This document shows, piece by piece, positions 40 through 30,042 of a stretch of 30,042 nucleotides of DNA (position 1 is its first letter; every line of letters starts with the position of its first letter). The notes below the pieces were generated by a model. That model was not told where the DNA came from, did not search any database, and worked only from the letters and a program-made list of their open reading frames with translations. The stretch is taken from the IMG/VR virus record IMGVR_UViG_2711768048_000007; one strand, written 5' to 3'. A program made the translations under genes and the position numbers. Source of the stretch: a virus (taxonomy: Duplodnaviria > Heunggongvirae > Uroviricota > Caudoviricetes).

Positions 40-402
40 GGGGCTGATTCTGGATTCGACGGGATTTGCGAAACCCAAGGTGCATGCCGAGGGGCGGTTG
101 GCCTCGTAAAAAGCCGCAAAAAATAGTCGCAAACGACGAAAACTACGCTTTAGCAGCTTAATAACCTGCTTAGAGCCCTCTCTCCCTAGCCTCCGCTCTT
201 AGGACGGGGATCAAGAGAGGTCAAACCCAAAAGAGATCGCGTGGAAGCCCTGCCTGGGGTTGAAGCGTTAAAACTTAATCAGGCTAGTTTGTTAGTGGCG
301 TGTCCGTCCGCAGCTGGCAAGCGAATGTAAAGACTGACTAAGCATGTAGTACCGAGGATGTAGGAATTTCGGACGCGGGTTCAACTCCCGCCAGCTCCAC
401 CA
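40..402 (+). ncRNA. ssrA: tmRNA (SsrA), complete
   Basis: Begins GGGGCTGATTCTGGATTCGACGGG and ends with the tRNA-like arm GGTTCAACTCCCGCCAGCTCCACCA; 363 nt, as expected for enterobacterial tmRNA. A TATACT -10-like hexamer lies upstream at 20..25. Confidence 0.95.
358..395. repeat. attL core: 38-bp direct repeat inside the ssrA 3' end
   Basis: ATGTAGGAATTTCGGACGCGGGTTCAACTCCCGCCAGC is repeated exactly at 26630..26667; the sequences diverge immediately after (TCCACCA here, CCACCA at the right copy). Confidence 0.85.
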
Positions 403-445: not shown

Positions 446-510
446 AGTAGTGGCGGCAAAATGGCGGCAGACATTCAGTCAAGCCCAGTTGCTACTACAT
501 GCGATCGCAA

Positions 511-1426: not shown

Positions 1427-1687
1427 AACTTGTTCCTCCATAGATACCTGACGTCTCTTAGCGCAAGCGCATGGCCCTAACTAAATAAAAAATAACAACC
1501 AGTTAGCCCAGAAAGCTTAACAAGTCGGCGTCCGATTACATGGCAATCAGGTAATCGGTCCGCAGTCGCAAAGCGACAAACTACATATCTACGGAGTGGG
1601 GATAAATCCCCGCTAACGTCAGGCATTGTTAATTTAACCTCAACTTATAGAAAAGTATAGTTTTAAATCATGTAGTTATGTCGCCAT

Positions 1688-3579: not shown

Positions 3580-6500
3580 GCGTCGTATCCCCCCTGATCG
3601 CTGTAGTTACTCCTGGCTTTTGCCTTCAGCCTGCGTTCACGTTCATCAAGCTGGCGGGCCACCTCCCGCGCAATATCCTGCGCACTTTGTCCTGGCTGCA
3701 TCTGAATGATGATCTGCGTCGGTGCCTCAATCCGGTGAACGGGCGGCACAGTGGCTGCACGACTCACCATCGCTTCGCCGCCTTTCGCGGGAAGTGCCAA
3801 AGGATGCAACGGTGGAAGCTCTGCAGGCGCGGCAGCAACGCCCATCATTCCGGCAACAACGGCAGCCAGTGCAGCTGTATTTCTCCGGCTGGTCACATTT
3901 GCCGGGCCGTTAACAATTTCCGGCCCGTTTTCACCGACGATGCCAAACTGCCCGCGCGGGATATAGCCGCCGCTGTCATACATCCCCGCAAAGCCATATC
4001 CCCATGATGGAAAACCACCCGATGGCATCATCACTTTACCGTCTGCATTCACCGTCGCAGGTTGCTGACGCGTCACGCTTTCCGGCAGTTTCGCCTTTGC
4101 AGCTTCTTTACTGACAATGCCGAGTTTATCCAGCAACCAGGAAACACCGGATTTCAGGGAGTCCAGCGGATGCATGACCATATTCAGCCCCTCCGCCAGA
4201 GCCTCCCCGAATCGTCGCCCCATTGCCGCTGCGCTCTGCAGTTCAGCAGAGGTCGACTTAACAGGCGTCAGCAGATCAGTAAACCAACCCCACAACGCCT
4301 GCACTTTGTCGCCAATCCACTGAAACACAGGCTTAAGTGGTTCGAATGCAGCACTGATGGGACCTGCCGACGCTTTGAATCCTTCCACCACGCCACCGAG
4401 AAATGCGGTGATGGGTTGCCAGTATTTCCAGACAACCAGCGCCACACCCGCCAGTGCAGTAACCACAAGACCTATCGGACTGAGCAGAGCACCTAACAGA
4501 CCAGATATGGCATACAGGGCAACGCGCAGCATCGCCAGCGGACCGGATGCCAGTACTCGCAGCACCGCGCCTGCGGCAGACAGTCCACCGCGTAGTGCTG
4601 CCAGTGGATTCATAAACATCACAGCAACAGCACGTAAACCGGATAATCCAGACCGCAACAGTGCAACCGGCACACCTGCTACAGTTTTCAGGACATTCCC
4701 CGTCAGTGATGCCGTGCGGCGCAAAGACGACAACGGCGCAGTAAGTAAACCTGCGGCGTTGCCCGATGAAGCAAGCCCGCGTCGCAGCAGTGCCAGTGGA
4801 GCGCCAGCTAACCAGGACAACGCGCTGCTGGTTCGTGTTACTGCTGCCGTAACGGAAGGTAACGTTTTGATACCCAGCACAGAGAATCCCAGACGGATGA
4901 CTGCCAGCGGCCCCAGCACTGCAGCCAGCGCCACCGCTAAGGTGCCGAGGCCTACGGTAACCGCAGCCACAACAGCCGCTACTTTCATCAGTGTGCCTGT
5001 CAGTTCCGGGTTAGCTTCCACCCAGCGGCGCAACGCTCCCGTGATGCTTTTCACCGTGTACAGAATATCCATCAGCGGCTGGCGCAGCGTTTCGCCCAGG
5101 CTGCTGAAGGTGTTCTGCGCTCCGGTTTTGACCAGCAACCACTGAGCAGAAAGTGAGTCTTTGTTGATGTCGGATTCTTTCTGCATGGAACCGAGCGCAT
5201 CATTGCCCGCTGTCAGTTTTAGCTGGCGCTGCAGTTCCGGAAGGTTGTTTGCCAGTTTCGCCGCGTCATCACCAAACTCTTTACCAAACAACATGGTCAT
5301 GGCAGACAGACGCTTGTCCTGCGGCAGTGCGTTCACCTTCTCCAGCACACGCTGGATAGTTCCCATCGCATCCTTCGTCATCTGCTTTTCAATCACTTCA
5401 GGATTGAGTTTCAGCAGATTCATCCCTTCAAAGAAACTCTTGCTTTGCATGGTGGCAATGGACAATTCACGCACCATCGCGTTTGCTGCACTGGCTGCAA
5501 CCTCCGGCGCAGCGCCCAGTGTCAGAAAGGTGGAACCCAGTGCCGCCGCTTTACGATAATCCAGACGGTCAGCCACACCGCCCAGACGTTGCATCACATC
5601 AATGATGTCCGCCCCTTTCGACATGGCGTTATCATCCAGATAGTTCAGCGCATCGCCGAGCTGTTCAATATTGCGGGTAGGTATTTTGTAGAGCTGGGCG
5701 ATTTTCCCCAGACTTTCTGACAGTTCATCCGCTGGCAGCTCAAAGGCTGTTGCCGCCTTTGCTGCCGTACTGGCGAAGGCCAGCAGGTCACGTTTCTGGT
5801 CTTCCCAGCTGTCGTCAGGGTTTGCGACGTTCATGCGCGCACCACCTTCAACCAGTGCAGCGAAGTCCACCGCACCGTTTTCCATCGGCAACTGTTCGCT
5901 GGCAGCCTTGATGGCATCCTGCATTTCATAAAAACGTGCAGTGCGGTTGCCATTATCGTCACGCAGACCATTGACCTGCTTTGCCACACCTTTCATGGCA
6001 TCTTCCATGCTGGTATAGCTTTTTACTGCCGCCATCACTGGCGCACCCATTGCCAGCCCTGCAGCCGTGGTGGTGGCTCCGGCACCTGCAATACGATCAC
6101 GCACCTCCAGCGAACGGGCATAACTGGCACGCGCTGCATTCATCCTGCGCTGAGCTTCCCCCAGTCGCTTCAGCCGCGCCTCCTGTTTCGAAAGTTCCTG
6201 GTTATAACGTGATGTTTCACGGGCTAAACGGGCAGTTGCTCCCGCATCGTCTTTCGCAGAAATTCCCGCCCGGTACAGTTCAGCACGCACAAGCGCCGTC
6301 TGCTGCTGCAGTTTTTTCTGGCGTTCTTCCAGGCGCTGAACAGCCAGCCGTTGACGGCCCAGAGCAACAACCTGACGTTGCGAAGGCGGCCCCATCGCTC
6401 CCAGTTCCTGACTGAGCAAATTTGCACGCTGGCGGGCATAGTTCAGCCTGTCGCCTAATTTCTGATTTTCTGCCTGCAGCTTTCGGAAGCTGTCCAGACT

Positions 6501-6653
6501 GCTCCCGGCCTGATCAAGCTGCTTTATTGCATCGCGGGATTTTTTGACAGCAGCAGCCAGTTCTCTTGAACTGGCCTGCGCAGATCGAAATGGGCGGGTG
6601 AGCTTGTCAACCGCATTAAGAATGACCTGCAGACGCAGGTTGTTATCACTCAT
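3576..6653 (-). CDS. T: tail tape measure protein
   Basis: 1025 aa, with an N-terminal coiled-coil region rich in Q/R/E/L/A and long Ala/Gly/Leu-rich hydrophobic repeats typical of tape measure proteins. Position matches P2 gpT. Confidence 0.9.
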   Translation of the reverse strand: MSDNNLRLQVILNAVDKLTRPFRSAQASSRELAAAVKKSRDAIKQLDQAGSSLDSFRKLQAENQKLGDRLNYARQRANLLSQELGAMGPPSQRQVVALGRQRLAVQRLEERQKKLQQQTALVRAELYRAGISAKDDAGATARLARETSRYNQELSKQEARLKRLGEAQRRMNAARASYARSLEVRDRIAGAGATTTAAGLAMGAPVMAAVKSYTSMEDAMKGVAKQVNGLRDDNGNRTARFYEMQDAIKAASEQLPMENGAVDFAALVEGGARMNVANPDDSWEDQKRDLLAFASTAAKAATAFELPADELSESLGKIAQLYKIPTRNIEQLGDALNYLDDNAMSKGADIIDVMQRLGGVADRLDYRKAAALGSTFLTLGAAPEVAASAANAMVRELSIATMQSKSFFEGMNLLKLNPEVIEKQMTKDAMGTIQRVLEKVNALPQDKRLSAMTMLFGKEFGDDAAKLANNLPELQRQLKLTAGNDALGSMQKESDINKDSLSAQWLLVKTGAQNTFSSLGETLRQPLMDILYTVKSITGALRRWVEANPELTGTLMKVAAVVAAVTVGLGTLAVALAAVLGPLAVIRLGFSVLGIKTLPSVTAAVTRTSSALSWLAGAPLALLRRGLASSGNAAGLLTAPLSSLRRTASLTGNVLKTVAGVPVALLRSGLSGLRAVAVMFMNPLAALRGGLSAAGAVLRVLASGPLAMLRVALYAISGLLGALLSPIGLVVTALAGVALVVWKYWQPITAFLGGVVEGFKASAGPISAAFEPLKPVFQWIGDKVQALWGWFTDLLTPVKSTSAELQSAAAMGRRFGEALAEGLNMVMHPLDSLKSGVSWLLDKLGIVSKEAAKAKLPESVTRQQPATVNADGKVMMPSGGFPSWGYGFAGMYDSGGYIPRGQFGIVGENGPEIVNGPANVTSRRNTAALAAVVAGMMGVAAAPAELPPLHPLALPAKGGEAMVSRAATVPPVHRIEAPTQIIIQMQPGQSAQDIAREVARQLDERERRLKAKARSNYSDQGGYDA

Positions 6654-6779
6654 CGTTGGCCCCGCTTCTCTGAATCGCTTTATACCGCCATTCCAGCACT
6701 TCGGTCAGCGGCATAACGTCAGTAACGGATGGCGGCCAGTGAAAAATGGTGGCGATATCTGCCACCAGATCGTCAACCG

Positions 6780-7082
6780 TCAGGCTGTCGGTAAACCGGC
6801 AAGCACCGACTTCTTCAACAAAAAAGTGACAACCTCAACCGACATGGCAGTGAGATCTGCCGGGTCCATCTCTGCAATTTCCTGTGCAGTCAGTGCCGGA
6901 CTGGAGATGCGGGGGATCACGGTCATCATCGCGTTTACATCCATATCCATAATGGCCTGCAGGCGTGTACCGCGCAGCGCACCGGACTGCGGTTTACGCA
7001 GCACAATTTCGGTGATTTCTGTTTTACCGCGCTTGATGGGGGTATCCAGTTGAATGGTCTTTTCAGTCTGCTTATCGCTCAT
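6780..7082 (-). CDS. E: tail assembly chaperone E; E+E' is made by a -1 frameshift
   Basis: 100-aa ORF directly upstream of T. It contains the slippery heptamer TTTTTTG (minus strand; plus-strand CAAAAAA at 6819..6825) 13 codons before its stop, as in P2 E/E'. Confidence 0.8.
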   Translation of the reverse strand: MSDKQTEKTIQLDTPIKRGKTEITEIVLRKPQSGALRGTRLQAIMDMDVNAMMTVIPRISSPALTAQEIAEMDPADLTAMSVEVVTFLLKKSVLAGLPTA

Positions 7083-7136
7083 TTTGCTGTCCTGTCAATT
7101 GGGTTCTGGCGCGGTATCCCGCGCCGTTCAGATATA

Positions 7137-7652
7137 TCAGAGGCCGAGGGCGTTGCGGTGCGCTTCCATCAGGTCCACACCGTCCACAATTTCCACCATG
7201 TTGATAAGGTCCACTTCATAGAGCACCTCACCATTGATGGTCAGCTTCGCGTAGCTGTTGGTACTGGTCACTTTGGTGGTGTTGCTTTCGCCCGTCTTCC
7301 ACTCGCCGGAATCCACTTCTTTGTGACGTCCACGCACGACAAGCTCCACGGCCTGCACTTCCCCGGTATCGTCACGCTGAATAGAGCCGGTAAAGCGCAG
7401 CTGGATGCCATCCACCGTGGCTTTACCCATCTGTTTAAACAGCAGCAATTCAGTACCACCAATGGAAAATTCTGTGTCCAGCGCACTGTCATCAAGCCCC
7501 AGATCCACATCCACCGCACCCGGCATTCCGCCGCCGCGATACTTCTCATATTTGCGGGTAAATTTCGGCAGCGTCAGCGACTCAACGATCCCCTGCCAGT
7601 TGTTCCCGTCGTTAAACAGGTTCAGGTGTTTTAATTTGCGTGGTAATGCCAT
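7137..7652 (-). CDS. FII: tail tube protein FII
   Basis: 171 aa, immediately downstream of the sheath gene, with an AGGGGA Shine-Dalgarno. Same size and position as P2 FII. Confidence 0.85.
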   Translation of the reverse strand: MALPRKLKHLNLFNDGNNWQGIVESLTLPKFTRKYEKYRGGGMPGAVDVDLGLDDSALDTEFSIGGTELLLFKQMGKATVDGIQLRFTGSIQRDDTGEVQAVELVVRGRHKEVDSGEWKTGESNTTKVTSTNSYAKLTINGEVLYEVDLINMVEIVDGVDLMEAHRNALGL

Positions 7653-7661
7653 GTTGTCCCC

Positions 7662-8765
7662 TTACGCGCTGACCTGGCTGGCGAAATTCACCAGGTACTG
7701 ATCGGTGATGCGCTGACGCAGCATCAGGTTTTCAAGTGGCGGCACTGGCGTGTAGTCGTAGTCGATGGTGAGTTTTCCGGCTTTCAGCGTGTCTTTGTCG
7801 TTCACCGACTCATCCAGCCAGCAATCACCACCAATGAGATAGCCCTGACTGACCAGGCTGCGCATTTTGGCGCGGATACCTTCGATAATGTCGCGGGCCA
7901 GCGACGGGTTAAGCGGTTTATCCACCGCCCACATGTGTGCTTCTGCCATCGTGTCCATCAGCACCTGCGCCGTGCGGGTGTAGTTTTCGAAGGCAAAGAG
8001 CGGGTCATCACTCAGGCAGCGGGAACCCCAGAAGCGGAAACCGTCTTTACGCACAAGCGTGGTGACGTCGTTCTGGTTCAGCAGACCTGCATCGGTTGCC
8101 GGGTCCTGCAGATCCCAGAACACATCTGCAGAAATTCCGGTGACACCGTTCACGCCCACGTTGGACAGGCTTTTGTGCCATCCGGTCTGCTCGTCAATTT
8201 TGGCGCGCAGACCAAGCGCACGGGCGGTGGCATATGCCGTTGCTTCGGCATTCAGCACCGTGTCCCAGCCAGTAAAGTCAGGCCAGATCAGCATCCCTTC
8301 GCGCTGGCTGAAGTTTTCACGGTAAGTGATCGCCTCCTGCACTGTCTTGCAGCCATACGCTGACAGGTAAGCAAATCCACGCAGGCTTTGCGCCACGCTC
8401 AGCAACTCAGTAGCTACCGCCTTGGTGTCGTGGCCTGGCACGCCGAGAATGCGCGGTTTAACGCCGAGCTGTGACTGGGCAGATAACAGGGCTTTCATAC
8501 CTGTTTTTTTACCTTCAGCAGTCACTGCGCCGATGATATTGGTCGTGGTTTCGTCTTCCGTTTCACCCTGCGGCACACGCACAACAATGGTCACGGGTTT
8601 TGCCTGGTCAGCGATGGCATCCAGCGAACGGGCCAGAGTACCTGACTCACCCGCTTTACCGCTGGCAGTCAGCACATCAGTGATCAGCACGGGTTTATTA
8701 AGAGGAAACATTTTTGCATCGGCATCATCGCCCGTGCAGACCATACCCACGATGGCGGTGCTCAT
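7662..8765 (-). CDS. FI: contractile tail sheath protein FI, lacking about 23 N-terminal codons
   Basis: 367 aa beginning [11 protein letters not shown], which corresponds to an internal segment of P2 FI (as I recall its sequence); in this window the upstream reading frame is closed by a stop within nine codons. Confidence 0.8.
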
Positions 8766-9702
8766 TCCCCAGTGCCGCCGCCAGTTCGTTCAGTGTATCC
8801 AGTGCAGCAGGTGCAGAACCCACCATTCCTGCAATCGCCGATTTCACAAAAGCCGTAGTGGCAATCTGTGTATTGTTGACCGACTGCGCCGCCGTGGGGG
8901 CTGTTGGCGTTCCGGTGAGTGCCGGACTCGACAACGGTGCTTTTAGTGCCAGCGCATTGTTAATGGTGGTACTGAAATTCGGATCATTGTTAATGGCTGC
9001 GGCTATTTCTTTCAGCGTGTCCAGCGTGGCTGGCGCACCATTAATAAGGGCCGTCAGTGCCGCCTGTACAAACGCAGTGGTCGCAACCTGCGTGGTATTA
9101 TTCCCCGCCGCTGGCGTTGGCGCTTTGGGGGTTCCGGTAAATGTCGGGCTGGCTTTTGGCGCGTACTGTGAATGCGGGTCCGGTGCGGCAAGATGTTTTG
9201 CCATCTGATCATCCGCGTAAACCTTCAGCTCCAGTGCCTTGTCATCCACATACTTGCGGGTTGCCAGCACTACAGCAGGGTCGATTTTCAGGGTGATATT
9301 GTCCGTGCTGCTGGTAATCAGCACCATGCGCACGGTCTGAGTGCGCCCGCTACCTTCAGCCAGTTGCGGCTTATAGCTTTCCGGGCAGTTGCCCACGGCA
9401 ATCAATGCCCCGGACTCATCAAACAAGCCCACTTCACGTATCCACCAACCGCCCTCGTTTTCAGGGATCACCTGTTCGGCAATAATCTGGCTGCTGTTCT
9501 GCGGGTCGATATAAAGCATATTCAGCGCAGCCCGGCGTTTCTCATTTACCAGTGCCGTCTGCTTTGCGTCCGGCGTTGGCAATACTCCACCGCCATCGCC
9601 CACCGCCATATGGGTAATTTTTAGCGGCACACCGAGCGCGGCGGCGCTGGCAAGTTTCGCCGCGCCAATATCCGTCAGCAGGGTATAAAATTTTGTGCTC
9701 AT
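8725..9702 (-). CDS. H: tail fibre protein H, N-terminal half only (truncated and fused to the FI 5' region)
   Basis: N-terminus [26 protein letters not shown]...MAVGDGGG and two TGTPxAPT...NNTQxATTAFV repeats are typical of P2-type fibre N-termini. The ORF stops after ...[20 protein letters not shown], and that tail is the FI start region read in another frame. No receptor-binding C-terminal domain. Confidence 0.7.
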
Positions 9703-9712
9703 GGATTCACTC

Positions 9713-10186
9713 TCATTGTGTCAATAACATGGACCGCCCCGCCTTCATGCGCGGTGCCACCCGGCTGATGGCCCAGCGGGCGTCACGCCACAAATCACCG
9801 CTTGCTTCCGCCAGTTCCTCGCCCCGCTTCACACCGGACGCCGTGGCGTCATAGTCCTGGTATCGTTCGTTGAGCATGGCGCGTGCCCAGCAGTAAACCG
9901 CGTTGAAATAGTGCTGAATGCGCTCACTTTTGCCGTCCAGCTGTTCCGCCGGAACTTCTGCCAGCGAGGCATACCCCAGCATCTGCTGGCGTCTGCGAAA
10001 CTCATACAGCTCTGCGTTGACCTCCGAAATTGCCGACAGCGCAACCTGCTTTAAACGCGGCTGCGTCACCGTGCCGTCAGTGCGCATCACGCTGCGAAAC
10101 TCCGACAGGTCCACATCAGGCCAGAACGGCGTATTCCTGATGATTTCCGCCTGTTCCGGTGCCTGTTCTGGCGCAACAAACTTCAT
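9713..10186 (-). CDS. L: head completion/stabilisation protein L
   Basis: NTPFWPDVDLSEFRSVMRTDG... has the gpL-like signature. Start set at the ATG with an AGGAGA Shine-Dalgarno (MKFVAPEQ...); the longest ORF begins with GTG at 10249. Confidence 0.75.
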   Translation of the reverse strand: MKFVAPEQAPEQAEIIRNTPFWPDVDLSEFRSVMRTDGTVTQPRLKQVALSAISEVNAELYEFRRRQQMLGYASLAEVPAEQLDGKSERIQHYFNAVYCWARAMLNERYQDYDATASGVKRGEELAEASGDLWRDARWAISRVAPRMKAGRSMLLTQ

Positions 10187-10281
10187 GCTGCTTTCTCCTG
10201 AAATAGAGGGCGGTGGACGGGGTTTTGATGTGGCAGTGCCTTTCGCCACCCCGTGCCGCCCGTGCGCGGGGGCACGTTCTG

Positions 10282-15795: not shown

Positions 15796-16494
15796 TTATT
15801 TGTTTCTTCTTTGTTCACGCCTTGTCTTGGCTTCGATAAGGCGTTGAGGTTCAGTGTAAAGCCGTTCTAAAAAAAGATAGGTAAAATCTTCAAGATCCTC
15901 AGCAGCAGCTTTATCCAAAATACCTTCATGCGCTCCATCATTTCCGTCATCTTTAACGCATTCAGCTAGTTCCCTTAAAGCTTCAGGCAGTAGATGATTA
16001 TCAAATAACCACTCCATTCTTAACCCTAGGCTTCTCCTTATTTTTTGCGCAGGCCCTTGCTCCCCATCAGGAAGAAGTCCTTTTGTGGCATAATCAAGGC
16101 AAAGCCTAAACATGGTTGCTGCTGCATTATAACAACCTATAGCCAAACATTTCGCCCCTTCCTCATATGCACTATTGATATGCTCAGGTAAGAACTCTGG
16201 TGGCTCCTCTACTGCTAAGTCTGCCGGTGATATAGGCCTAACAACCTCTGCAACTTCCTTTAAGCCGAATATTCCACTTTCCCAATTATAGCCATCTAAA
16301 GTTTTATTTTTCGTTAAAGGTCTGCAAAGAAACATTGTCGTTTTATGACACTCTCGGCAAACACAATAGACCTCGTACTCGTATGTTTTACCCCCGCCCA
16401 ATGCATTGTAAACCCTAGTGCAATTCAGCCCATTAACATCAAACGCTATTTTTTGTGATCCACATCGTGGACAGTCATCCACTAACATAACCAT
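15796..16494 (-). CDS. hypothetical cargo protein: N-terminal zinc ribbon plus C-terminal helical domain
   Basis: 232 aa. Cys pattern CPRCG...C...CxCRECH; C-terminal motif KDDGNDGAHEG. Strong GGGAGGAG Shine-Dalgarno. Lower GC than the phage backbone. Lies between portal and cos, convergent with Q (8-bp gap). Confidence 0.65.
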   Translation of the reverse strand: MVMLVDDCPRCGSQKIAFDVNGLNCTRVYNALGGGKTYEYEVYCVCRECHKTTMFLCRPLTKNKTLDGYNWESGIFGLKEVAEVVRPISPADLAVEEPPEFLPEHINSAYEEGAKCLAIGCYNAAATMFRLCLDYATKGLLPDGEQGPAQKIRRSLGLRMEWLFDNHLLPEALRELAECVKDDGNDGAHEGILDKAAAEDLEDFTYLFLERLYTEPQRLIEAKTRREQRRNK

Positions 16495-16595
16495 GTCAAT
16501 TACTCCTCCCTATGAAAAAAATGAGTTGAAAAATTGAATATTCACGACTTAAAAAGCTAGCCTATTTAACACCATAATTTCATTAATTCAACCAT

Positions 16596-16630
16596 GAGCG
16601 CGCGCTCGTATCCCCGCCACGCCTGCCCGC
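16596..16630. other. cos-like cohesive-end site
   Basis: The minus strand reads GGCGTGGCGGGGATACGAG, matching the first 13 nt of the 186 cohesive end GGCGTGGCGGGGA... as I recall it. A perfect 12-bp palindrome GAGCGCGCGCTC adjoins it (16596..16607). Confidence 0.5.
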
Positions 16631-16665
16631 TTTATGTAGTGGTTTTCATGCGTCTGCATGACATA

Positions 16666-16692
16666 AGCAAAAGCCCGCCATTCCTAGCGGGC
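16666..16692 (-). terminator. rho-independent terminator downstream of the 203-aa gene
   Basis: Minus strand: GCCCGC-TAGGAATG-GCGGGC followed by TTTTG. Confidence 0.5.
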
Positions 16693-16783
16693 CTCAGCTA
16701 AAACGATCCTCAAACGATCATGCGGATTCATGCGGCATAGACATGCACAATCGCCAAAGCGGGCATCGAGACTTTTTGGAAAA

Positions 16784-17395
16784 CTACGTAACCACAGTTA
16801 ATGTGTGCATCCTGTCTCGAATTGCATCACACGTCTCATCAAAAAGCTTGGTGATGGTTGTACGATTCAACTCTGCCTCTTTCCAATAATTTTGCCAGTC
16901 AAATTCTGGATCGCCATGCTGAAACGATATTGACTCTGAAAAGCATTCCTTCCGGAAACGGTCCAAGATTATATAAACCTCTGGTGAGATGAACGGTTTG
17001 TTAGACTCAACACTTGTAACAAAAGTATTAAATGCATCGAAAAAAACTTTCAACCTTCTAAATTTTCTCTCTTCAAATGGTTCGTTGGGGTCAAAATGAT
17101 CCAGCGCAGGCCTCAGCTTAAGCACGCTTTCTCTGGTTTCAAACATCGAATTCCAAATGAGACTATATGCTGATAACTCCTTATCAAAATACGCTTTCGT
17201 TACATAAACAGAATTGTCTAACTTAGCCTTTATTCTTTCATTAGTTGCACTCAGTTGTGATTGAAATTCAGCAATATCTTTGTTTAGCCGCGACTTATAT
17301 CTTTCTAAATAAACTTTCCCGATCCAAACAAATATGCCAGATGCAACAAAAGACACCCCACCCAACGAAGCCAGAATTTTAAAGACTAAATCCAT
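16784..17395 (-). CDS. hypothetical cargo protein with an N-terminal transmembrane anchor
   Basis: 203 aa. Hydrophobic helix ILASLGGVSFVASGIFVWIG at the N-terminus, then a soluble domain. Own promoter-like elements (TTGATT, 15 bp, TATAAT at about 17425..17455), a Shine-Dalgarno, and a terminator. AT-rich. Confidence 0.65.
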   Translation of the reverse strand: MDLVFKILASLGGVSFVASGIFVWIGKVYLERYKSRLNKDIAEFQSQLSATNERIKAKLDNSVYVTKAYFDKELSAYSLIWNSMFETRESVLKLRPALDHFDPNEPFEERKFRRLKVFFDAFNTFVTSVESNKPFISPEVYIILDRFRKECFSESISFQHGDPEFDWQNYWKEAELNRTTITKLFDETCDAIRDRMHTLTVVT

Positions 17396-23806: not shown

Positions 23807-24457
23807 TTGTCAAATGGAGAGTTCATCTTGAAGATTAATACAGGTGCAAATACGGGAGGGAGAGAGACCATCAAAAGGCTGATGACAGCCTATGGTTTCA
23901 ACACTCAGATAGCGTTGGTTGAACACCTCGAAGCATCAAAAAGCACCATGGCAAACAGGATGTTACGTGATAGCTTCCCTGCTGACTGGGTTATTCAATG
24001 TGCCCTTGAAACAGGTATTTCTCTTCTTTGGCTGACAACGGGCCAAGGGGAAATGTATCCTCAAACAGAAGAAAAAAATAAGTTCAAAAACGAGAGTTCA
24101 CCTACAGTTCGCCCCCTTTCAAAGATAGTTATCCCATCAGTAAGGCAGGTAACCATTGAGAACGGAACTCTCGAAGAGATGGGGGATGTTTTCCTTGATC
24201 AGACTTTGATACCCGGAAAAGCCGAATATTGTTTGTACGTCAAAGCTAACGACGGCAATTACATTGTTGATACATCAACAAAACAGCTTAGTAACGGAAT
24301 TTGGCTCATAGACATCGACGGTATGAAAAACATCGTCAAAATTGCGCGCATACCTGGAAACAAAATAGTAGTTAACCAAGATGACACGTCATTTGAATGT
24401 TCTGTAGATGATGTGGAAGTCGTAGGACGTGCAGTCAAAGTAATCAAGAACCTCTAA
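23807..24457 (+). CDS. cI: CI-type immunity repressor (start uncertain)
   Basis: HTH region AYGFNTQIALVEHLEASKSTMANRM plus a C-terminal domain. The longest ORF starts with TTG at 23807; a TTG at 23828 has a GGAGAG Shine-Dalgarno and is a likely true start. Confidence 0.75.
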   Translation: MSNGEFILKINTGANTGGRETIKRLMTAYGFNTQIALVEHLEASKSTMANRMLRDSFPADWVIQCALETGISLLWLTTGQGEMYPQTEEKNKFKNESSPTVRPLSKIVIPSVRQVTIENGTLEEMGDVFLDQTLIPGKAEYCLYVKANDGNYIVDTSTKQLSNGIWLIDIDGMKNIVKIARIPGNKIVVNQDDTSFECSVDDVEVVGRAVKVIKNL

Positions 24458-24460
24458 CTT

Positions 24461-25477
24461 ATGACCATAAGAAAACAGCCGAACGGAAAATGGTTGTGTG
24501 AGTGCTATCCCAATGGACGCAATGGTAAGCGCGTGCGTAAGCAATTTGCTACCAAAGGCGAAGCCATTGCTTTTGAAAGCTTCACAATGGAAGAAGTGAA
24601 TAAAAAACCGTGGTTGGGTGAAAAGGATGATCGGCGACGCCTATCAGAATTAATTGAGCTTTGGTATTCCCTGTATGGTCAGACACTCGCAGACCCCAAG
24701 CGCCTCATGGCGAAACTTAGAATTATCTGTAATGGTCTAGGCGACCCCATCGCCTCAGAACTGACAGCCGGTGACTTTACGAAATACCGCGAAGCACGGT
24801 TAAAAGGTGACGTTCGTAACGAAGACGGCACACTAATGTCGCCAGTAAAACCACGCACGGTGAATCTTGAGCAACGTAACCTATCATCGGTTTTCGGCAC
24901 ATTGAAAAAACTAGGCCACTGGTCAGCACCAAATCCTCTCGCCGGGCTGCCAACATTTAAAATCGCTGAGGGGGAACTGGCGTTCCTGACCTCGGAAGAA
25001 ATTAAACGTCTGCTAGATGCCTGCGCTGATTCTCAAAACCCCAGTCTGCTTTTGATTGCAAAAATATGCCTGGCCACCGGCGCACGCTGGAGTGAAGCCG
25101 AAAACCTGCAGGGCCATCAGTTATCTAAATACCGCATCACTTATACCAAGACGAAGGGTAAGAAAAACCGCACCGTGCCGATATCTCAAGATCTGTATGA
25201 CGAACTCCCCAAGAACAGAGGGAAGCTATTCACCCCGTGCAGAAAAGCCTTTGAACGAGCAGTAAAGCGAGCTGGCATCGAGCTGCCAGAGGGCCAATGC
25301 ACTCACGTGCTACGTCATACATTCGCCAGCCATTTTATGATGAATGGCGGAAACATACTGGTTCTGCGCGATATTCTGGGCCATGCCGATATAAAAATGA
25401 CGATGATCTATTCTCATTTTTCACCAGAACACTTAGAAGATGCAGTAACTAAGAATCCTTTAAATTATATTGAGTGA
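24461..25477 (+). CDS. int: tyrosine integrase (P2 Int family)
   Basis: 338 aa; C-terminal catalytic region HVLRHTFASHFMMNGGNILVLRDILGHADIKMTMIYSHF with the catalytic Tyr. Lies next to attR. Confidence 0.9.
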   Translation: MTIRKQPNGKWLCECYPNGRNGKRVRKQFATKGEAIAFESFTMEEVNKKPWLGEKDDRRRLSELIELWYSLYGQTLADPKRLMAKLRIICNGLGDPIASELTAGDFTKYREARLKGDVRNEDGTLMSPVKPRTVNLEQRNLSSVFGTLKKLGHWSAPNPLAGLPTFKIAEGELAFLTSEEIKRLLDACADSQNPSLLLIAKICLATGARWSEAENLQGHQLSKYRITYTKTKGKKNRTVPISQDLYDELPKNRGKLFTPCRKAFERAVKRAGIELPEGQCTHVLRHTFASHFMMNGGNILVLRDILGHADIKMTMIYSHFSPEHLEDAVTKNPLNYIE

Positions 25478-25482
25478 AAATC

Positions 25483-26544
25483 ATGTTAAGTGATACTTGT
25501 TATACAGTGATTTATATTGCAGCAATCGTTTTATTAGTATTTATTACAATAGTAAAAAAATGGTACATGCTTGATAAAAGAAATTTATTTCGTCAGAAAT
25601 TATTTTGGATTTCAGTTTTAACACCTTTATTTTCCTTTATCTATTTTGGTTTTTTCACATGGTGGGGAAAAGAACCAGTACTCTCCGCACATGGCTATTC
25701 AAGATTTTACGAAATAAGCAAATTCCCTCTACTATTGCTAGCTAGTGCAGTTCCTTTGGCTTCGATCGTCAACAATATACATCGCACTATACAAACCGAA
25801 GCTCAGATCAACACCGCTGAAACGAAAAATGCAGTCGATAGATATTTAGCACATGAGAAAAACTTTATTGAGAAAACAAAGGAAATATTCGCCTACAATC
25901 TTCAAAGCGCGAGAGACTCAGATGGAAACCTCATTAAATTCAATGGCGAACCAAATATCACTTTGTTTACAGCAGATGAAATTAAAATTTCCAACCCATA
26001 TCTTTTATATACAAAAATATACAACAAATCAACTATAGAGACCACATCTAACTTCACCGCAAACCCTGATTTTTTAGTGCAATTAAAGGAGTACTTAAAC
26101 ACAATTAATAATACTCTGTCGGTTCAACACTCTATAGATGAATATAATCCATTAAGTTACATGATTCGACTTAACACTTTGTCATATAATACAGCCTCGT
26201 TATTAGACCTGATATGTACATCCCCCATATCTCATGTATACTGTTTGATAAAATATGATGGGTATCAATTAAAAACATTTACACTTGAAGAACAAGTATT
26301 CGCCGATATTTTAGAAATATCATATCTTCTATCAAGAAAACTAATTCGTTTGATATATAATGAAGATATACCACATTACGACAACATTTATAATTACTTA
26401 TATGTTGGTAAGTTGAGGTTTAAATTCAGAAAACACGCCAATTCTTTACAAGCATTTTCTTCGCAGGAATGGGCTGATTACGTTTCTGAAGCACTAACTC
26501 TAGTTCCTAACGAAGTTGGCGGCACTTTGGCGGCAGCGCATTAA
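25483..26544 (+). CDS. hypothetical polytopic membrane protein, very AT-rich cargo
   Basis: Three predicted helices (YTVIYIAAIVLLVFITIV, WISVLTPLFSFIYFGFFTWW, LLLLASAVPLASIVNNI) then an Asn/Tyr/Ile-rich domain of about 250 aa. GC content estimated by eye at about 30 percent, against roughly 50 percent for the backbone. Overlaps the int stop; a GTG at 25474 is an alternative start. Confidence 0.65.
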   Translation: MLSDTCYTVIYIAAIVLLVFITIVKKWYMLDKRNLFRQKLFWISVLTPLFSFIYFGFFTWWGKEPVLSAHGYSRFYEISKFPLLLLASAVPLASIVNNIHRTIQTEAQINTAETKNAVDRYLAHEKNFIEKTKEIFAYNLQSARDSDGNLIKFNGEPNITLFTADEIKISNPYLLYTKIYNKSTIETTSNFTANPDFLVQLKEYLNTINNTLSVQHSIDEYNPLSYMIRLNTLSYNTASLLDLICTSPISHVYCLIKYDGYQLKTFTLEEQVFADILEISYLLSRKLIRLIYNEDIPHYDNIYNYLYVGKLRFKFRKHANSLQAFSSQEWADYVSEALTLVPNEVGGTLAAAH

Positions 26545-26629: not shown

Positions 26630-26667
26630 ATGTAGGAATTTCGGACGCGGGTTCAACTCCCGCCAGC
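26630..26667. repeat. attR core: duplicated 3' fragment of ssrA
   Basis: Identical 38 bp to 358..395, followed by CCACCA; this is a displaced partial ssrA 3' end, not a gene. Confidence 0.85.
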
Positions 26668-26833: not shown

Positions 26834-29749
26834 TCAGAACGACCAGTTCACACCAGCTACCGCGTTCCACGGGGATTCCACACCGGCACTATGGCTATAC
26901 CCCACCCCAAGATGCCCGCTTAACGTACTGCTGAATGAGGCTTTAATACCTGCCTGGTATATTCCACGTCTGCCCGACAAATAATTGACGAAATTACCGT
27001 CACTATTCACTTTCACCCGGTTATCATCGACAAATTCTTTGCGCACAGCCGCCTTCAGCCACGGCTCAACTTCCATACCGTTCCCCAGACGCATGTTGTA
27101 ACTCAGCGTTGCGCCCAGTTCACGATATATACTGCGGGTATCGACTGATTTCGATTTCATGCCATTGGATAAATGATATTCGGGGTTATCAGCGGTGAAC
27201 CCCGTTAACGATGCATACGGCGTCAGGTTCCAGTTACCATCGGTAAATCGCATCCCGGTTTCAATGTGACCGCCCAGCCCGTTGCTGTGGTAACTGCCAT
27301 TGGCGGCTCCACCGCTGCTCATTTTACCTGCTACGTTACTTTTAAAACGGTTCAGCTTCACGACACCGTCCAGATAGAAACCACTTTCATGTTCCCAACT
27401 GGCATAGCCGCCCAGAGAATAACTGCCCACACTGCCATGTCCTCCGCGATCAAAACCGATATGTGAATGGGAATAGCCCATAAAAGCGCCTAGCGTGGTA
27501 ATTCCTTCAGGAATATCATTACGGCTGTCGATCCCCACTGTCATTCCGGTCAGCGTCTGCTCAAACCCGGCACCCGCATCGGTGGTGACATTATTACGGG
27601 TGTTATACGTCGCCCCCCAGACATTATTGTTGTGTGGACTCGCTTTCATTATGTTCAACCGCTCGCGAATACTGTTTAGCTCAGCATCAAATACCAACGG
27701 TAATGTTGCTGCCATATTGAGTACGGCTGCCGTAGAAGGCGTAATGCGTTTCTCCGGAACGGGTGTCGGCGTTGGATCGGGAGTAGGGTCTGGTTTTGGA
27801 TTTGGGTCTGGCTTTGGATCGGGTTTTGGGTCTGGCTTTGGATTTGGGATGGGGTCCGGGTTGGGTTTGACATCATTGGTCAGGTTCCAGTTGCTGTTGC
27901 CGTCACTTTTCAGGACATACTCATAGGTCCCAAGATCAACGAAACCGCCGGTATTGCCCAGCGTAAACGAAGCATCCCCTCCCCCTGTTTTCACCAGCGT
28001 CATCGCGTCGTCAGACTGTGGGCTGACGCCGGTATCCTGAACAAAGATTTTAAAATTACCAGTGGCGTTGTTGTTGACGACCAGTTGATCGCCCCGGGAG
28101 CCTGCAACGTTGGTATGCAGGTAGAAATTACCGCTACCGGAAAGTTCATTGGTTGTCAGCGTATTGTAGATACCGTTAGTTGTGGCAGGCGCTGCTGTTT
28201 GTGCTGACAAATAAACATCACCGTCGTTGAGTAGCAAACTGTTTACTCTATATTCGCAGTTGCTGGTACCTGCACAGGAATTATTGCTGTTAAGCCAGAC
28301 ACTGCCCCGGCTGGCAGCCGTCAGGTCGGCAAGCGTGGTATCGACGCCATTTCCCAGAGTCAATGTCGCGCTATCGGTAATCCGGACCGCCCCTTCGAGT
28401 TTAACTGGCGTAACATTATCCCGTGGCGTCATTAACGACAGGCTTCCTGTCGCGCCACTGACCGATGCATCCGCCAGCGTACCTGCGTAGACGATTGCCG
28501 TACCGCCAGCGACCTGGAGATCTTCTGCCCGGGCCAGAGCCTGAAACTCATCTTTTGACCGCCCAAGGGTATATTGCCCGCCAGAGTTAACCTTTGTGGC
28601 GGAGTCCTGACCCAGGTTTTGCATTGCCCCACCCTTGCCAACCGTGGAGTCGCGAGCTTCGGTACCTGCTAATACCAATAAATTACCGCCATTTTCCAGC
28701 AACATATTGGTCGCTAAATTGCCGGAAATGGAAAAAGTACCGTACTGGTGAGTACCGCTGATTTCAATACCGTTAGCCGTGCTCGTCTGGAGAGCGGCAC
28801 CGCTGTTCTGGACGATATCTGTCGCTTTGCCATTATCGTTGACTGTCAGCGTACCGCCTTCATTGATCTTTGTTTTTATTGCCTCTCCGTTAGCTGAAAC
28901 TGTTTGTATTCCGCCGTCGTTAATTGTTGTCTCATTCGCCACACCCTCGACAATTTGTTCACCGCCGGTGAGCGTCGTGCCTGTCGCAGTGGCTTTTGTT
29001 TTGACGATCTCCCGTCCGCCCATATTGACCTGTGTTTTGTCAGAAGAGGTGTCTGACTCCACGGTTAACACGCCGCCATTTGCCAGCAGGATATTGTTCG
29101 CCGCACCCTGCTCGATGCTGAACGCGACGCCATCCGCGCGTGTTCCTGTGACCCGCGTCGCCCTGGTGGTTGCAACCAAAGCGCCCTGGCTACTCTGCTG
29201 TATCCCCGTTGCGCTGCCTTTCTCCCGCACATCGAGTGTGCCGCCGTCATTAAGCACCGAGTTTTCAGCCAGACCGCCCTCATTAACTACCTGTGAACCC
29301 CCATTAATAATGGAACCTTCCGCTGTCCCGTTTGCCATAATTTGTTGTAGGCCAGAGACGATATCGGTATTGATTGCCTTACCATAATTCTGAACGGTTT
29401 GCGTGCCACCATTGATGTGTGTTTTCTCTGTTGACCCACCATCAACAATTTGTTCACCACTTTCGATATTTGCTTCAGTGGCTAAACCATATACCGTTTG
29501 CTTGCCACCTTTGATATTTGCTTTATCAGAAGTGGCACTGGCATATATTGTTTGGGTGCCAGCACTATTGAGTACAGTGCCAACATCTTTTCCATAAACA
29601 TCCATTTTGCCGTTGGCATTAATAATCGTGTCAACTGCGCGGGAACCAGTGACGACTGTTAATGAGCCAGCGTTTTCCAGCACTACATTTTTAGCTTCTG
29701 AATTCCTGATGTAGAAAGCATCACCATAACTGTTGGTTCCTTCGATAAG
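26834..29749 (-). CDS. autotransporter adhesin (YpjA-like), N-terminal part cut off by IS2 (probable pseudogene fragment)
   Basis: Repetitive Gly/Thr/Asn-rich passenger region, Pro-rich PNPDPIPNPKPDPKPDP linker, C-terminal beta-barrel ending ...AGVNWSF. No signal peptide; the 5' end runs into the IS2 terminal repeat. Confidence 0.75.
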   Translation of the reverse strand, partial: LIEGTNSYGDAFYIRNSEAKNVVLENAGSLTVVTGSRAVDTIINANGKMDVYGKDVGTVLNSAGTQTIYASATSDKANIKGGKQTVYGLATEANIESGEQIVDGGSTEKTHINGGTQTVQNYGKAINTDIVSGLQQIMANGTAEGSIINGGSQVVNEGGLAENSVLNDGGTLDVREKGSATGIQQSSQGALVATTRATRVTGTRADGVAFSIEQGAANNILLANGGVLTVESDTSSDKTQVNMGGREIVKTKATATGTTLTGGEQIVEGVANETTINDGGIQTVSANGEAIKTKINEGGTLTVNDNGKATDIVQNSGAALQTSTANGIEISGTHQYGTFSISGNLATNMLLENGGNLLVLAGTEARDSTVGKGGAMQNLGQDSATKVNSGGQYTLGRSKDEFQALARAEDLQVAGGTAIVYAGTLADASVSGATGSLSLMTPRDNVTPVKLEGAVRITDSATLTLGNGVDTTLADLTAASRGSVWLNSNNSCAGTSNCEYRVNSLLLNDGDVYLSAQTAAPATTNGIYNTLTTNELSGSGNFYLHTNVAGSRGDQLVVNNNATGNFKIFVQDTGVSPQSDDAMTLVKTGGGDASFTLGNTGGFVDLGTYEYVLKSDGNSNWNLTNDVKPNPDPIPNPKPDPKPDPKPDPNPKPDPTPDPTPTPVPEKRITPSTAAVLNMAATLPLVFDAELNSIRERLNIMKASPHNNNVWGATYNTRNNVTTDAGAGFEQTLTGMTVGIDSRNDIPEGITTLGAFMGYSHSHIGFDRGGHGSVGSYSLGGYASWEHESGFYLDGVVKLNRFKSNVAGKMSSGGAANGSYHSNGLGGHIETGMRFTDGNWNLTPYASLTGFTADNPEYHLSNGMKSKSVDTRSIYRELGATLSYNMRLGNGMEVEPWLKAAVRKEFVDDNRVKVNSDGNFVNYLSGRRGIYQAGIKASFSSTLSGHLGVGYSHSAGVESPWNAVAGVNWSF
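27757..27870. repeat. tandem short-unit repeats encoding the Pro-rich autotransporter linker
   Basis: Reiterated GGKTYTGGNTTTGGR units (for example GGGTCTGGCTTTGGATCGGGTTTTGGGTCTGGCTTTGGATTTGGG). Confidence 0.6.
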
Positions 29750-30042
29750 TGGATTTGCCCCTATATTTCCAGACACCTGTTATCACTTAACCCATTACTG
29801 GCCTGCTGCCGCAGATATTCCCGTGGCGAGCGATAACCCAGTGCACTATGCGGATGCCATTCGTTATAATGCTCGAACGCCTCTGCAAGGTTCTTTGCTG
29901 CCGTTAACCCGTCTGGTTTAGGCATGATACTGATGTAGTCACGCTTTATCGTTTTCACGAAGCTCTCTGCTATGCCGTTACTCTCCGGACTCCGCACCGC
30001 CGTGTTCTTCGGTTCAAGCCCCAACATCCGGGCAAACTGCCG
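29750..30042 (-). mobile_element. IS2 (IS3 family), right end, partial at the window edge
   Basis: Terminal sequence TGGATTTGCCCCTATATTTCCAGACACCTGTTATCACTTAA matches the IS2 right inverted repeat as I recall it, and the adjacent ORF is the InsD C-terminus. Confidence 0.8.
29761..30042 (-). CDS. insD: IS2 transposase InsD (OrfB), C-terminal part; continues beyond the window
   Basis: ...[36 protein letters not shown]...[32 protein letters not shown]. Confidence 0.8.

What the first reader, a model, noticed from the sequence alone, without database searches (positions are those of the whole stretch)
25483..26544. Very AT-rich polytopic membrane protein between int and attR
By eye the GC content drops to roughly 30 percent for this 353-aa ORF, against about 50 percent for the backbone, which points to recent acquisition. 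The protein has three N-terminal transmembrane helices and an Asn/Tyr/Ile-rich C-terminal domain with no obvious catalytic motif. It overlaps the int stop and occupies the int-proximal side of attP, a position where lysogenic-conversion or exclusion genes sit in other tRNA-integrating phages.
Basis: partly seen in the sequence, partly recalled or inferred. Interest (0 to 1): 0.6.

Follow-up and report, generated by a model that had tools for sequence, protein, structure and literature searches.

The report
Uncharacterised membrane cargo gene beside prophage integrase
An AT-rich gene wedged between the integrase and the attachment site of a defective Fels-2/186-like prophage encodes a three-helix inner-membrane protein of a large, never-studied family with no known fold relative; its placement and variability suggest, without proving, a role in excluding other phages.

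Summary
ORF 25483-26544 (353 aa; 356 from GTG 25474) is 32.9% GC against 51.7% for the rest of the prophage, the lowest value in the window. It has three N-terminal hydrophobic helices (predicted N-out, C-in) and a ~255-aa cytoplasmic part. It is the last gene of the cI-int lysogeny operon of a Fels-2/186-like prophage integrated in ssrA.

The cassette fills exactly the gap between the int stop and the integrase arm-binding repeats of attP (TGGCGGCA x2). The ORF reads through those repeats, which explains its oddly conserved C-terminal tail (GG-TLAA-H).

The family is large (1,040 clusters at 50% identity). Every member is annotated "hypothetical", and none matches a Pfam, NCBIfam or PADLOC model. 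No solved or viral structure resembles confident AlphaFold models. In 18 of 20 sampled loci the gene sits beside int or an int remnant, 13 times in an intact cI-int operon, and with one exception it is the only cargo gene.

TM2-TM3 and a polar juxtamembrane helix (N-x-H-R-T-x-Q-T-x-x-Q...K-N-x-x-D-x4-H-x-K) are conserved. The cytoplasmic domain is hypervariable and is exchanged between otherwise near-identical prophages.

Best reading: a lysogen-expressed membrane phage-exclusion or abortive-infection protein of a new family. This is circumstantial and untested. A HEPN RNase reading was tested and rejected.

The parts
23807..24457 (+). cI repressor, first gene of the lysogeny operon
   Evidence: Pfam Phage_CI_repr 1.5e-28 and Phage_CI_C 1.3e-30
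24461..25477 (+). Fels-2/186-type tyrosine integrase
   Evidence: Pfam Int_N 1.8e-29 and Phage_integrase 1.6e-24. 92% identical to Fels-2 Int and 91% to SopEPhi Int.
25483..26544 (+). The ORF under study: 353 aa from ATG 25483, or 356 aa from the alternative GTG at 25474 that overlaps the int stop.
   Evidence: PHROG 17460 (unknown function) at 6e-45. No terminator-like site between cI, int and the ORF.
25498..25554 (+). TM1 (aa 6-24), poorly conserved
   Evidence: Kyte-Doolittle peak 2.73. Region 1-30 has mean pairwise identity 0.22-0.25.
25600..25770 (+). TM2 (aa 40-58), short periplasmic loop, TM3 (aa 78-96): the conserved membrane module
   Evidence: Hydropathy peaks 1.84 and 1.85. Mean pairwise identity 0.41-0.59. 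Near-invariant Q38, F41, P48, W60, G71, F75, P82, L86. Loop 1 has 5 K/R, which implies N-out, C-in.
25771..25872 (+). Conserved polar juxtamembrane helix (aa 97-130): NNIHRTIQTEAQI...KNAVDRYLAHEKN
   Evidence: H100 and Q104 are invariant. R101, T105, Q108, K115, N116, D119, H124 and K126 are in at least 90% of 85 distant representatives. Mean pairwise identity 0.51-0.61, conserved on all helical faces (moment 0.15-0.20). Modelled as part of one long helix, aa 69-135.
25873..26505 (+). Hypervariable cytoplasmic alpha/beta domain (aa 131-341)
26516..26535 (+). P-arm integrase arm-binding direct repeats TTGGCGGCA-ct-TTGGCGGCA, which encode the ORF's tail VGGTLAAAH
   Evidence: They match the reverse complement of the 186-type arm-site consensus tgccGCCActt (PMC3448106). 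Backbone homology to all related prophages resumes here.
26630..26667 (+). attR core (copy of the ssrA 3' end)
   Evidence: Exact 38-nt direct repeat of 358-395
358..395 (+). attL core, inside the tmRNA gene (40-402)
450..469 (+). P'-arm integrase arm-binding direct repeats GTGGCGGCA-aa-ATGGCGGCA
   Evidence: Same 11-bp period and orientation as the P-arm pair.

Best explanation
The gene is a mobile cargo cassette at the 3' end of the cI-int lysogeny operon of a 186/Fels-2-like prophage. It encodes an inner-membrane protein expressed in the lysogen.

Most likely function: it protects the lysogen, and hence the prophage, against other phages. The conserved module (TM2, TM3 and the polar juxtamembrane helix) would be the membrane-acting part. 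I infer that it oligomerises into a lesion or channel, as holins and other membrane abortive-infection effectors do. The hypervariable cytoplasmic domain would be the specificity or sensor part that holds the effector in check until it meets a phage product.

Shown here: the anatomy, operon placement, cassette boundaries, family size, conservation pattern and lack of known relatives.

Inferred: expression from the lysogenic promoter, topology, anti-phage role and mechanism.
For: 1. Placement. In 13 of 20 sampled loci, from nine genera, the gene lies in an intact cI-int operon, -4 to +5 nt from the int stop wherever the junction was read. In 12 the order is cI-int-gene: E. coli, Klebsiella, Citrobacter, Lelliottia, Salmonella, Morganella and Providencia. 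In Serratia it is cI-gene-int. In five further loci it sits beside int or an int remnant. No terminator-like site lies between cI, int and the ORF.

2. The slot is a cargo hotspot. It is empty in Fels-2 (32 bp, against 1,058 bp here) and holds unrelated genes in SopEPhi, RE-2010 and Cartapus. The literature lists int-att of P2-like prophages as a minor defence hotspot (PMC13586616).

3. Conserved membrane core with a hypervariable cytoplasmic domain: 0.41-0.61 against 0.13-0.25 mean pairwise identity. Prophages with 92-96% identical Int carry alleles only 29-49% identical. Recombination breakpoints fall just after the conserved core.

4. Rare and patchy: 5 of 5,426 complete E. coli genomes carry this allele and at least 15 carry the family. 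Yet the family has 1,040 clusters at 50% identity.

5. AT-rich in every host, as is the other cargo of this slot.

6. The same prophage carries defence-like cargo at the other P2 hotspots: a retron-type RT, and a DUF4145 protein resembling PD-T7-4.

7. Predicted topology is N-out, C-in with three TM helices. This is the topology of class I holins, a point from general knowledge rather than a test here.

8. PdpSau and AbiP show that a single membrane-anchored protein with a cytoplasmic domain can confer abortive infection with membrane depolarisation (PMC10127798).
Against: - There is no experimental evidence of any kind.
- No PADLOC model matches, and no homology or fold similarity to any characterised defence or exclusion protein was found.
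- Hotspot position is only a prior. The same 2026 survey finds just 3% of P2-borne defence systems there.
- Hypervariability could also reflect relaxed constraint on a non-essential domain.
- The conserved helix is conserved on all faces, which does not specifically indicate a pore lining.
- Topology rests on hydropathy and the positive-inside rule only.
Confidence: 0.4

Rival explanations
1. Superinfection exclusion at the inner membrane. The protein blocks genome entry of incoming phages, as P22 SieA, T4 Imm or HK97 gp15 do, rather than killing the infected cell.
For: It is a prophage-encoded predicted inner-membrane protein in the lysogeny operon. The periplasmic loop and TM2-TM3 are the conserved parts, which could contact a conserved host or phage entry component. 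Its near-exclusive association with 186-like prophages would suit exclusion of relatives.
Against: At ~350 aa it is much larger than classical Sie proteins. The variable, apparently specificity-determining domain is predicted to be cytoplasmic, away from the entry machinery. No hit to any annotated Sie family in Pfam or PHROGs.
Confidence: 0.2
2. A non-defence accessory function: a lysogenic-conversion membrane protein that alters host physiology or envelope, or an addiction or toxin-like element that stabilises the prophage.
For: The position next to int-att is also where O-antigen-modifying and other conversion genes sit in other temperate phages (general knowledge). The gene survives intact in a prophage that has lost its baseplate and lysis genes. 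This is compatible with host-beneficial or addictive functions.
Against: No similarity to Gtr or Oac families or to any transporter or enzyme family; there are only sub-threshold TM noise hits. No partner antitoxin-like gene, because the gene is solitary in nearly all loci. Extreme diversification of a cytoplasmic domain is not expected for an envelope-modifying enzyme.
Confidence: 0.25
3. A membrane-tethered HEPN ribonuclease. The cytoplasmic helical bundle is a divergent HEPN domain that cleaves RNA on activation.
Confidence: 0.05
4. Not a functional gene: a chance ORF in AT-rich junk, or a decaying pseudogene.
For: Low GC, no annotation, and residence in a defective prophage.
Against: 1,040 homologous clusters at E <= 0.001 with the same length and architecture, and invariant residues across them. 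Confident AlphaFold models, pLDDT 86-88. 99.6-100% nucleotide identity across five E. coli genomes.
Confidence: 0.02

Closest known systems
PHROG 17460 (phage protein family of unknown function)
   Same: Direct profile match, E 6e-45, covering aa 10-294 of the protein and profile positions 6-291 of 343. This is the same family.
   Different: The PHROG carries no functional annotation, so it names the family without explaining it.
Membrane-anchored single-gene abortive-infection proteins: S. aureus prophage PdpSau and lactococcal AbiP
   Same: One gene whose product has an N-terminal membrane anchor and a cytoplasmic domain. PdpSau is prophage-encoded; AbiP is lactococcal. For PdpSau, infection leads to loss of membrane potential and aborted phage replication (PMC10127798). 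This is the closest functional analogue.
   Different: PdpSau and AbiP have one TM helix and an OB-fold-like, positively charged nucleic-acid-binding domain. This protein has three TM helices, a conserved polar juxtamembrane helix and a helical-bundle/beta domain with no OB fold. PdpSau sits in the lysis module, not next to int. There is no sequence relationship.
Cargo of P2-like prophage hotspots (old, tin, fun; systems of Rousset et al. 2022; int-att minor hotspot of PMC13586616)
   Same: An AT-rich, patchily distributed, swappable gene flanked by conserved phage backbone in a P2-like prophage. The int-att interval is a recorded minor defence hotspot.
   Different: No match to any PADLOC model, which includes the Rousset and Vassallo systems. 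The classical hotspots are gpA-gpQ and the tail region, not int-att. Here the cassette ends inside the integrase arm-binding sites.
Superinfection-exclusion inner-membrane proteins (P22 SieA, T4 Imm, HK97 gp15)
   Same: Phage-encoded inner-membrane proteins, expressed in the lysogen in the temperate cases, that protect against incoming phages (general knowledge).
   Different: Those proteins are much smaller and lack a large variable cytoplasmic domain. No annotated Sie family was hit in Pfam or PHROGs. They were not compared pairwise.
Class I holins (lambda S105)
   Same: Three TM helices with predicted N-out, C-in topology (the holin topology is from general knowledge).
   Different: Holins are ~100 aa with a short charged tail and sit in lysis cassettes. 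This protein has a 255-aa cytoplasmic domain and sits in the lysogeny operon. The resemblance is topological only.
HEPN superfamily (RiboL-PSP-HEPN, PF18735)
   Same: A helical-bundle cytoplasmic domain. One family member gives a sub-threshold Pfam match and has R-N-x3-H.
   Different: The defining R-x4-6-H motif is absent from this protein and from 84 of 85 representatives. No Pfam hit for this protein.

Membership tests
PHROG 17460 | Significant match to the family profile over most of its length | tested here: met
   E 6e-45, 155 bits, protein 10-294 against profile 6-291 of 343
Cargo of the int-attP slot of 186/Fels-2-like prophages | Lies between the int stop and the attP arm-binding repeats, flanked by conserved backbone | tested here: met
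   Backbone homology ends at 25458-25470 and resumes at 26512-26517 in eight related loci. Fels-2 has 32 bp there.
Cargo of the int-attP slot of 186/Fels-2-like prophages | Content of the slot varies among closely related phages | tested here: met
   Empty in Fels-2. orfY in SopEPhi, a 401-aa hypothetical in RE-2010, a 'RES-like' gene in Cartapus, and two cassettes in Klebsiella L009-12.
Known anti-phage defence systems (PADLOC-DB v2.0.0) | Match to any defence-protein model | tested here: not met
   0 families at E <= 10. A Proteus homolog also gave 0.
HEPN superfamily / RiboL-PSP-HEPN (PF18735) | R-x4-6-H catalytic motif | tested here: not met
   Absent from the window's protein. The aligned position is a hypervariable loop in 84 of 85 representatives, and only P0093 has RNAIAH.
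HEPN superfamily / RiboL-PSP-HEPN (PF18735) | Pfam model match above the gathering score | tested here: not met
   No hit for the window's protein. P0093 scores 25.1 bits against a cut-off of 28.4.
HEPN superfamily / RiboL-PSP-HEPN (PF18735) | HEPN four-helix-bundle fold | tested here: inconclusive
Membrane-anchored Abi proteins (AbiP / PdpSau type) | N-terminal membrane anchor with a cytoplasmic C-terminal domain | tested here: met
   Three hydrophobic helices. Positive-inside rule gives C-in: loop 1 has 5 K/R here, and family means are 2.6-3.1 for loop 1 against 1.5 for loop 2. This is prediction only.
Membrane-anchored Abi proteins (AbiP / PdpSau type) | OB-fold-like nucleic-acid-binding domain | tested here: not met
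Membrane-anchored Abi proteins (AbiP / PdpSau type) | Infection-triggered membrane depolarisation and aborted phage replication | not testable with these tools
   Needs infection assays.
Superinfection-exclusion membrane proteins | Blocks phage DNA entry without killing the cell | not testable with these tools
   Needs injection, adsorption and survival assays. No annotated Sie family hit in Pfam or PHROGs.
O-antigen-modifying conversion genes next to int-att (Gtr, Oac) | Match to glucosyltransferase, flippase or acyltransferase families; 9-11 TM helices | tested here: not met
   No such Pfam hit for this protein. Two of 85 relatives give sub-threshold Acyl_transf_3 noise. Only three TM helices.

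The most novel reading that the evidence does not exclude
This is the founding example of a new, widespread family of single-protein membrane immune effectors with a previously unseen fold. It is carried almost exclusively in the lysogeny operon of 186-like prophages. A conserved three-TM and polar-helix module kills or seals the membrane when a hypervariable cytoplasmic sensor domain recognises a phage product. The sensor domain is exchanged between prophages by recombination between the conserved 5' half of the gene and the integrase arm-binding sites that form its last codons. The attP architecture itself would then serve as the anchor for diversifying an immunity gene.
Probability: 0.3. 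Interest if true: 0.7.

Novelty: new variant of a known kind. Interest (0 to 1): 0.5.

Why it matters
If the gene is an anti-phage or exclusion function, it adds a large family (over 1,000 clusters at 50% identity, mainly Enterobacterales) that current defence-finding tools miss completely. It is absent from Pfam, NCBIfam and PADLOC, and it has a fold with no solved relative. It would also give a clean natural system for studying how a conserved membrane effector is coupled to an exchangeable sensor domain.

Whatever its function, the locus shows how a cargo slot is built into attP. Cassettes are inserted exactly between the int stop and the 186-type Int arm-binding repeats, and this family uses those repeats as its last nine codons and its stop. 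That explains a protein-level "conserved tail" as a DNA-level constraint, and it is a caution for anyone reading motif conservation at the ends of prophage cargo genes.

The practical value is modest. The gene is rare in E. coli (at least 15 of 5,426 complete genomes).

Tried and rejected
- **HEPN RNase.** Followed up because one relative (P0093) hits PF18735. Rejected as a family feature. The R-x4-6-H motif is unique to P0093, the score is below cut-off, and there is no sequence signal to solved HEPN proteins.
- **DUF3810 (Pfam).** 17.9 bits against a cut-off of 28, in 1 of 44 members, over the TM region. Treated as TM noise. The same applies to DctQ, Acyl_transf_3 and ABC2_membrane hits in a few relatives.
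- **C-terminal tail as a protein signal.** I considered an ssrA-like degron, a GG processing site or a ubiquitin-like end for 'GG-TLAA-H'. Rejected in favour of a DNA-level explanation. The tail is encoded by the Int arm-site repeats, which are present at the same place in Fels-2 with no ORF and on the other att arm.
- **A partner gene or two-gene system.** Rejected. The gene is solitary in nearly all loci. The 397-aa gene that follows it in Klebsiella L009-12 is a separate cassette with its own copy of the arm-site element.
- **Profile search against PDB sequences.** Only designed helical proteins at E >= 0.019.
- **Literature.** No paper mentions WP_051594477. Nothing matching appears in Rousset 2022 or DefensePredictor 2026.
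- **Rfam scan of the window.** Only the tmRNA.

Full report
**Observation.** It runs 25483-26544 on the + strand (353 aa from ATG), with an alternative GTG at 25474 giving 356 aa. RefSeq annotates the identical gene in E. coli AR_0017 as a hypothetical protein, WP_051594477.1.

The computed GC is 0.329 (GC3 0.291). The rest of the prophage is 0.517 and int is 0.475. This is the lowest-GC 1062-nt stretch of the whole window, z about -3. Hydropathy gives three membrane segments at aa 6-24, 40-58 and 78-96. The first loop has five K/R residues, so the predicted topology is N-out, C-in with about 255 residues in the cytoplasm. The family-wide K/R counts agree.

With the ATG start the ORF begins 5 nt after the int stop (TGA 25475-25477) and does not overlap it. 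A conserved polar motif does exist. Low GC does not indicate recent arrival, as explained below.

**Setting.** The window opens with the tmRNA gene (40-402). A 38-nt exact repeat of its 3' end (358-395 and 26630-26667) delimits a 26.3-kb prophage. The prophage has a 186-type lysogeny module: cI at 23807-24457 and int at 24461-25477. Its Int is 92% identical to Fels-2 Int and 91% to SopEPhi Int, and both of those phages integrate in ssrA (PMC3448106). The ORF is the last gene of the cI-int transcription unit, and no terminator-like site separates the three genes.

**Cassette boundaries and the conserved tail.** The last nine codons, VGGTLAAAH, are GC-rich (0.56 over the last 36 nt) inside an AT-rich gene. 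They are encoded by a tandem direct repeat, TTGGCGGCA-ct-TTGGCGGCA, at 26516-26535. A matching pair, GTGGCGGCA-aa-ATGGCGGCA, lies at 450-469 just inside attL, with the same 11-bp period and orientation.

Nilsson and Haggård-Ljungquist report that 186-type integrases recognise arm-site direct repeats, at least two on each side of the core, with consensus tgccGCCActt (PMC3448106). Its reverse complement, aagTGGCggca, is this repeat. So the ORF reads through the P-arm Int-binding sites and uses the backbone's TAA as its stop.

The same element ends homologous ORFs that are only 29-49% identical as proteins, in Citrobacter, Lelliottia and Klebsiella. In Fels-2, which has no cargo gene, the element sits directly after int. 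In SopEPhi, RE-2010 and Cartapus it sits directly after their unrelated cargo genes.

Blastn against eight related loci shows backbone homology stopping at 25458-25470 and resuming at 26512-26517. In Fels-2 those points are 32 bp apart, against 1,058 bp here. About half of the close full-length relatives (48 of 98) end in the arm-site-encoded motif. Among sampled internal 25-residue windows the rate was 0.000. The "conserved C-terminal tail" is therefore a DNA-level constraint, not a protein signal.

**The family.** A first search found 103 clusters at 90% identity, all in Enterobacterales and all annotated "hypothetical". A profile search of 1.84 billion representatives found 1,040 clusters at 50% identity with E <= 0.001, and 211 with E <= 1e-30. 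A second annotated search with the wider profile again returned only hypothetical proteins with no domain fusions.

Pfam, NCBIfam and PADLOC have no model for the family. Only PHROG 17460 (unknown function) matches, at 6e-45.

Conservation is sharply regional:

| Region | Mean pairwise identity |
|---|---|
| TM2, loop, TM3 and the following helix (aa 31-130) | 0.41-0.61 |
| N-terminus and TM1 | 0.22-0.25 |
| aa 131-340 | 0.13-0.25 |

Across 85 distant representatives H100 and Q104 are invariant. R101, T105, Q108, K115, N116, D119, H124, K126 and Y176 are present in at least 90%. The motif reads N-x-H-R-T-x-Q-T-x-x-Q...K-N-x-x-D-x4-H-x-K. It is conserved on all helical faces (moment 0.15-0.20), so it is not simply a docking stripe.

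**Structure.** AlphaFold models are confident. The full-length model has pLDDT 85.9 and pTM 0.71, and the cytoplasmic part (aa 92-353) has pLDDT 87.8 and pTM 0.83. TM3 continues into one long helix (aa 69-135) that carries the conserved motif. Together with three further helices and a small sheet it forms the cytoplasmic domain.

| Search | Best result |
|---|---|
| Foldseek vs viral structures (BFVD) | E = 3 |
| Profile and single-sequence searches of PDB sequences | nothing useful |

AFDB50 was not available. On present evidence the fold has no characterised relative.

**Context across genomes.** I sampled 20 distinct loci.

- In 13 of them, from nine genera, the gene lies in an intact cI-int operon.
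- In 12 of those the order is cI-int-gene. The hosts are E. coli, Klebsiella, Citrobacter, Lelliottia, Salmonella, Morganella and Providencia, and the integration sites differ.
- Where I read the junction, the gene starts between -4 and +5 nt from the int stop.
- In Serratia rubidaea the order is cI-gene-int.
- In five further loci the gene sits next to an int gene or an int remnant. These are three Proteus loci and Kosakonia (remnants), and Xenorhabdus (a different integrase type).
- The two remaining loci show no integrase nearby. The gene lies beside umuC in Pseudomonas, and between a glycine-transporter gene and yicC in the contig labelled Vagococcus.
- The gene is the only cargo gene everywhere except in Klebsiella P0095 loci. 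There a 397-aa gene follows, with its own copy of the arm-site element, so it is a second independent cassette.

Prophages whose Int proteins are 92-96% identical carry alleles only 29-49% identical. In two loci nucleotide homology continues from int into the conserved 5' half of the gene and breaks at 25799 or 25887, just after the conserved core. The cytoplasmic domain is therefore exchanged as a sub-module.

The gene is rare in E. coli. Five of 5,426 complete genomes carry this allele and at least 15 carry the family. Only 2 of 50,697 phage records carry it.

Family members are 0.25-0.38 GC in all 17 loci examined, 8-21 points below their flanks. The unrelated cargo of the same slot is 0.33-0.35 GC. 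Low GC therefore marks a mobile cargo pool and says little about when this strain acquired the gene.

**Interpretation.** Shown here:
- a swappable cassette inserted precisely between int and the attP arm sites;
- a probable position in the lysogenic transcript;
- a predicted inner-membrane protein with a conserved membrane and juxtamembrane module and a hypervariable cytoplasmic domain;
- a large family with no known relative.

Inferred: it is expressed in lysogens and acts against other phages. Three things support that inference. The int-att interval of P2-like prophages is a recorded minor defence hotspot (3% of P2-borne systems; PMC13586616). The conserved-effector and variable-sensor pattern is typical of single-protein immune sensors. 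And PdpSau and AbiP show that a membrane-anchored single protein can cause abortive infection with depolarisation (PMC10127798).

I favour an abortive-infection-type sensor-effector (confidence 0.4) over exclusion at DNA entry (0.2), because the variable domain is predicted to be cytoplasmic. A non-defence accessory role remains quite possible (0.25). None of this has been tested experimentally.

**Verdict.** The gene is a new, uncharacterised family in a known kind of place. It is of moderate interest as a candidate defence gene invisible to current tools. The unexpected structural detail is that its 3' end is made of integrase arm-binding sites.

Noticed in passing
window 26516-26535 and 450-469: 186-type integrase arm-binding direct repeats (TGGCGGCA x2, 11-bp period) lie on both arms of attP. 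The P-arm pair is translated in two frames as the last codons (GG...LAA) of the ORF. This creates a spurious 'conserved protein tail' across otherwise unrelated C-terminal domains.
   Followed up: yes
window 511-1441 (- strand): Between ogr (1688-1939) and attL lie a 257-aa reverse transcriptase and an overlapping 62-aa ORF with one hydrophobic helix (1253-1441). The RT hits Pfam RVT_1 at 1.9e-21, and its best PADLOC hit is retron-type RT_VI at 6.7e-18. This looks like a second cargo locus on the other side of attP. Rfam found no retron ncRNA at gathering threshold.
   Followed up: partly
window 15796-17395 (- strand): The classical gpA-gpQ hotspot holds a 231-aa DUF4145 protein (Pfam 4.5e-07; weak PADLOC match to PD-T7-4 at 1.2e-06) and a 202-aa ORF with no match. 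Both are at about 0.38-0.42 GC.
   Followed up: partly
window 7662-10249: The prophage is defective. Head-completion gene L (9713-10249) is followed directly by a 324-aa tail-fibre fragment with only the N-terminal collar domain (8725-9702), and then by the tail sheath gene (7662-8765). The baseplate, tail-fibre assembly and lysis genes expected between them are missing. The prophage is 26.3 kb, against 33.7 kb for Fels-2.
   Followed up: partly
window 26834-30027: Immediately right of attR lies ypjA/ehaD, an adhesin-like autotransporter. It appears cut short at its 5' end (980-aa ORF) by an IS2/IS3-family transposase fragment at 29761-30027. Labels come from the annotation of matching E. coli records.
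   Followed up: partly
L009-L012 (Klebsiella), 5001-7540: Two cargo cassettes sit in tandem after int: the membrane-protein family member, then an unrelated 397-aa gene. Each ends with its own copy of the arm-site repeat element, which suggests that cassettes accumulate by recombination at that element.
   Followed up: partly
L029 (Serratia rubidaea), 4396-7097: Here the family member lies between cI and int rather than after int. It is still inside the lysogeny operon.
   Followed up: no
P0093 (metagenomic relative), aa 92-241: This is the only family member with a canonical HEPN R-N-x3-H motif (RNAIAH) and a near-threshold HEPN_RiboL-PSP match. It could be a chance resemblance, or a lineage whose variable domain really is a HEPN nuclease.
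   Followed up: partly
L021, L022, L023 (RE-2010 gp01, SopEPhi orfY, Cartapus gp33): The alternative occupants of the same int-attP slot are ~400-aa proteins at about 0.35 GC. They have no Pfam or PADLOC match, despite a 'RES-like' label in the Cartapus record. They form a second uncharacterised cargo family of this slot.
   Followed up: partly
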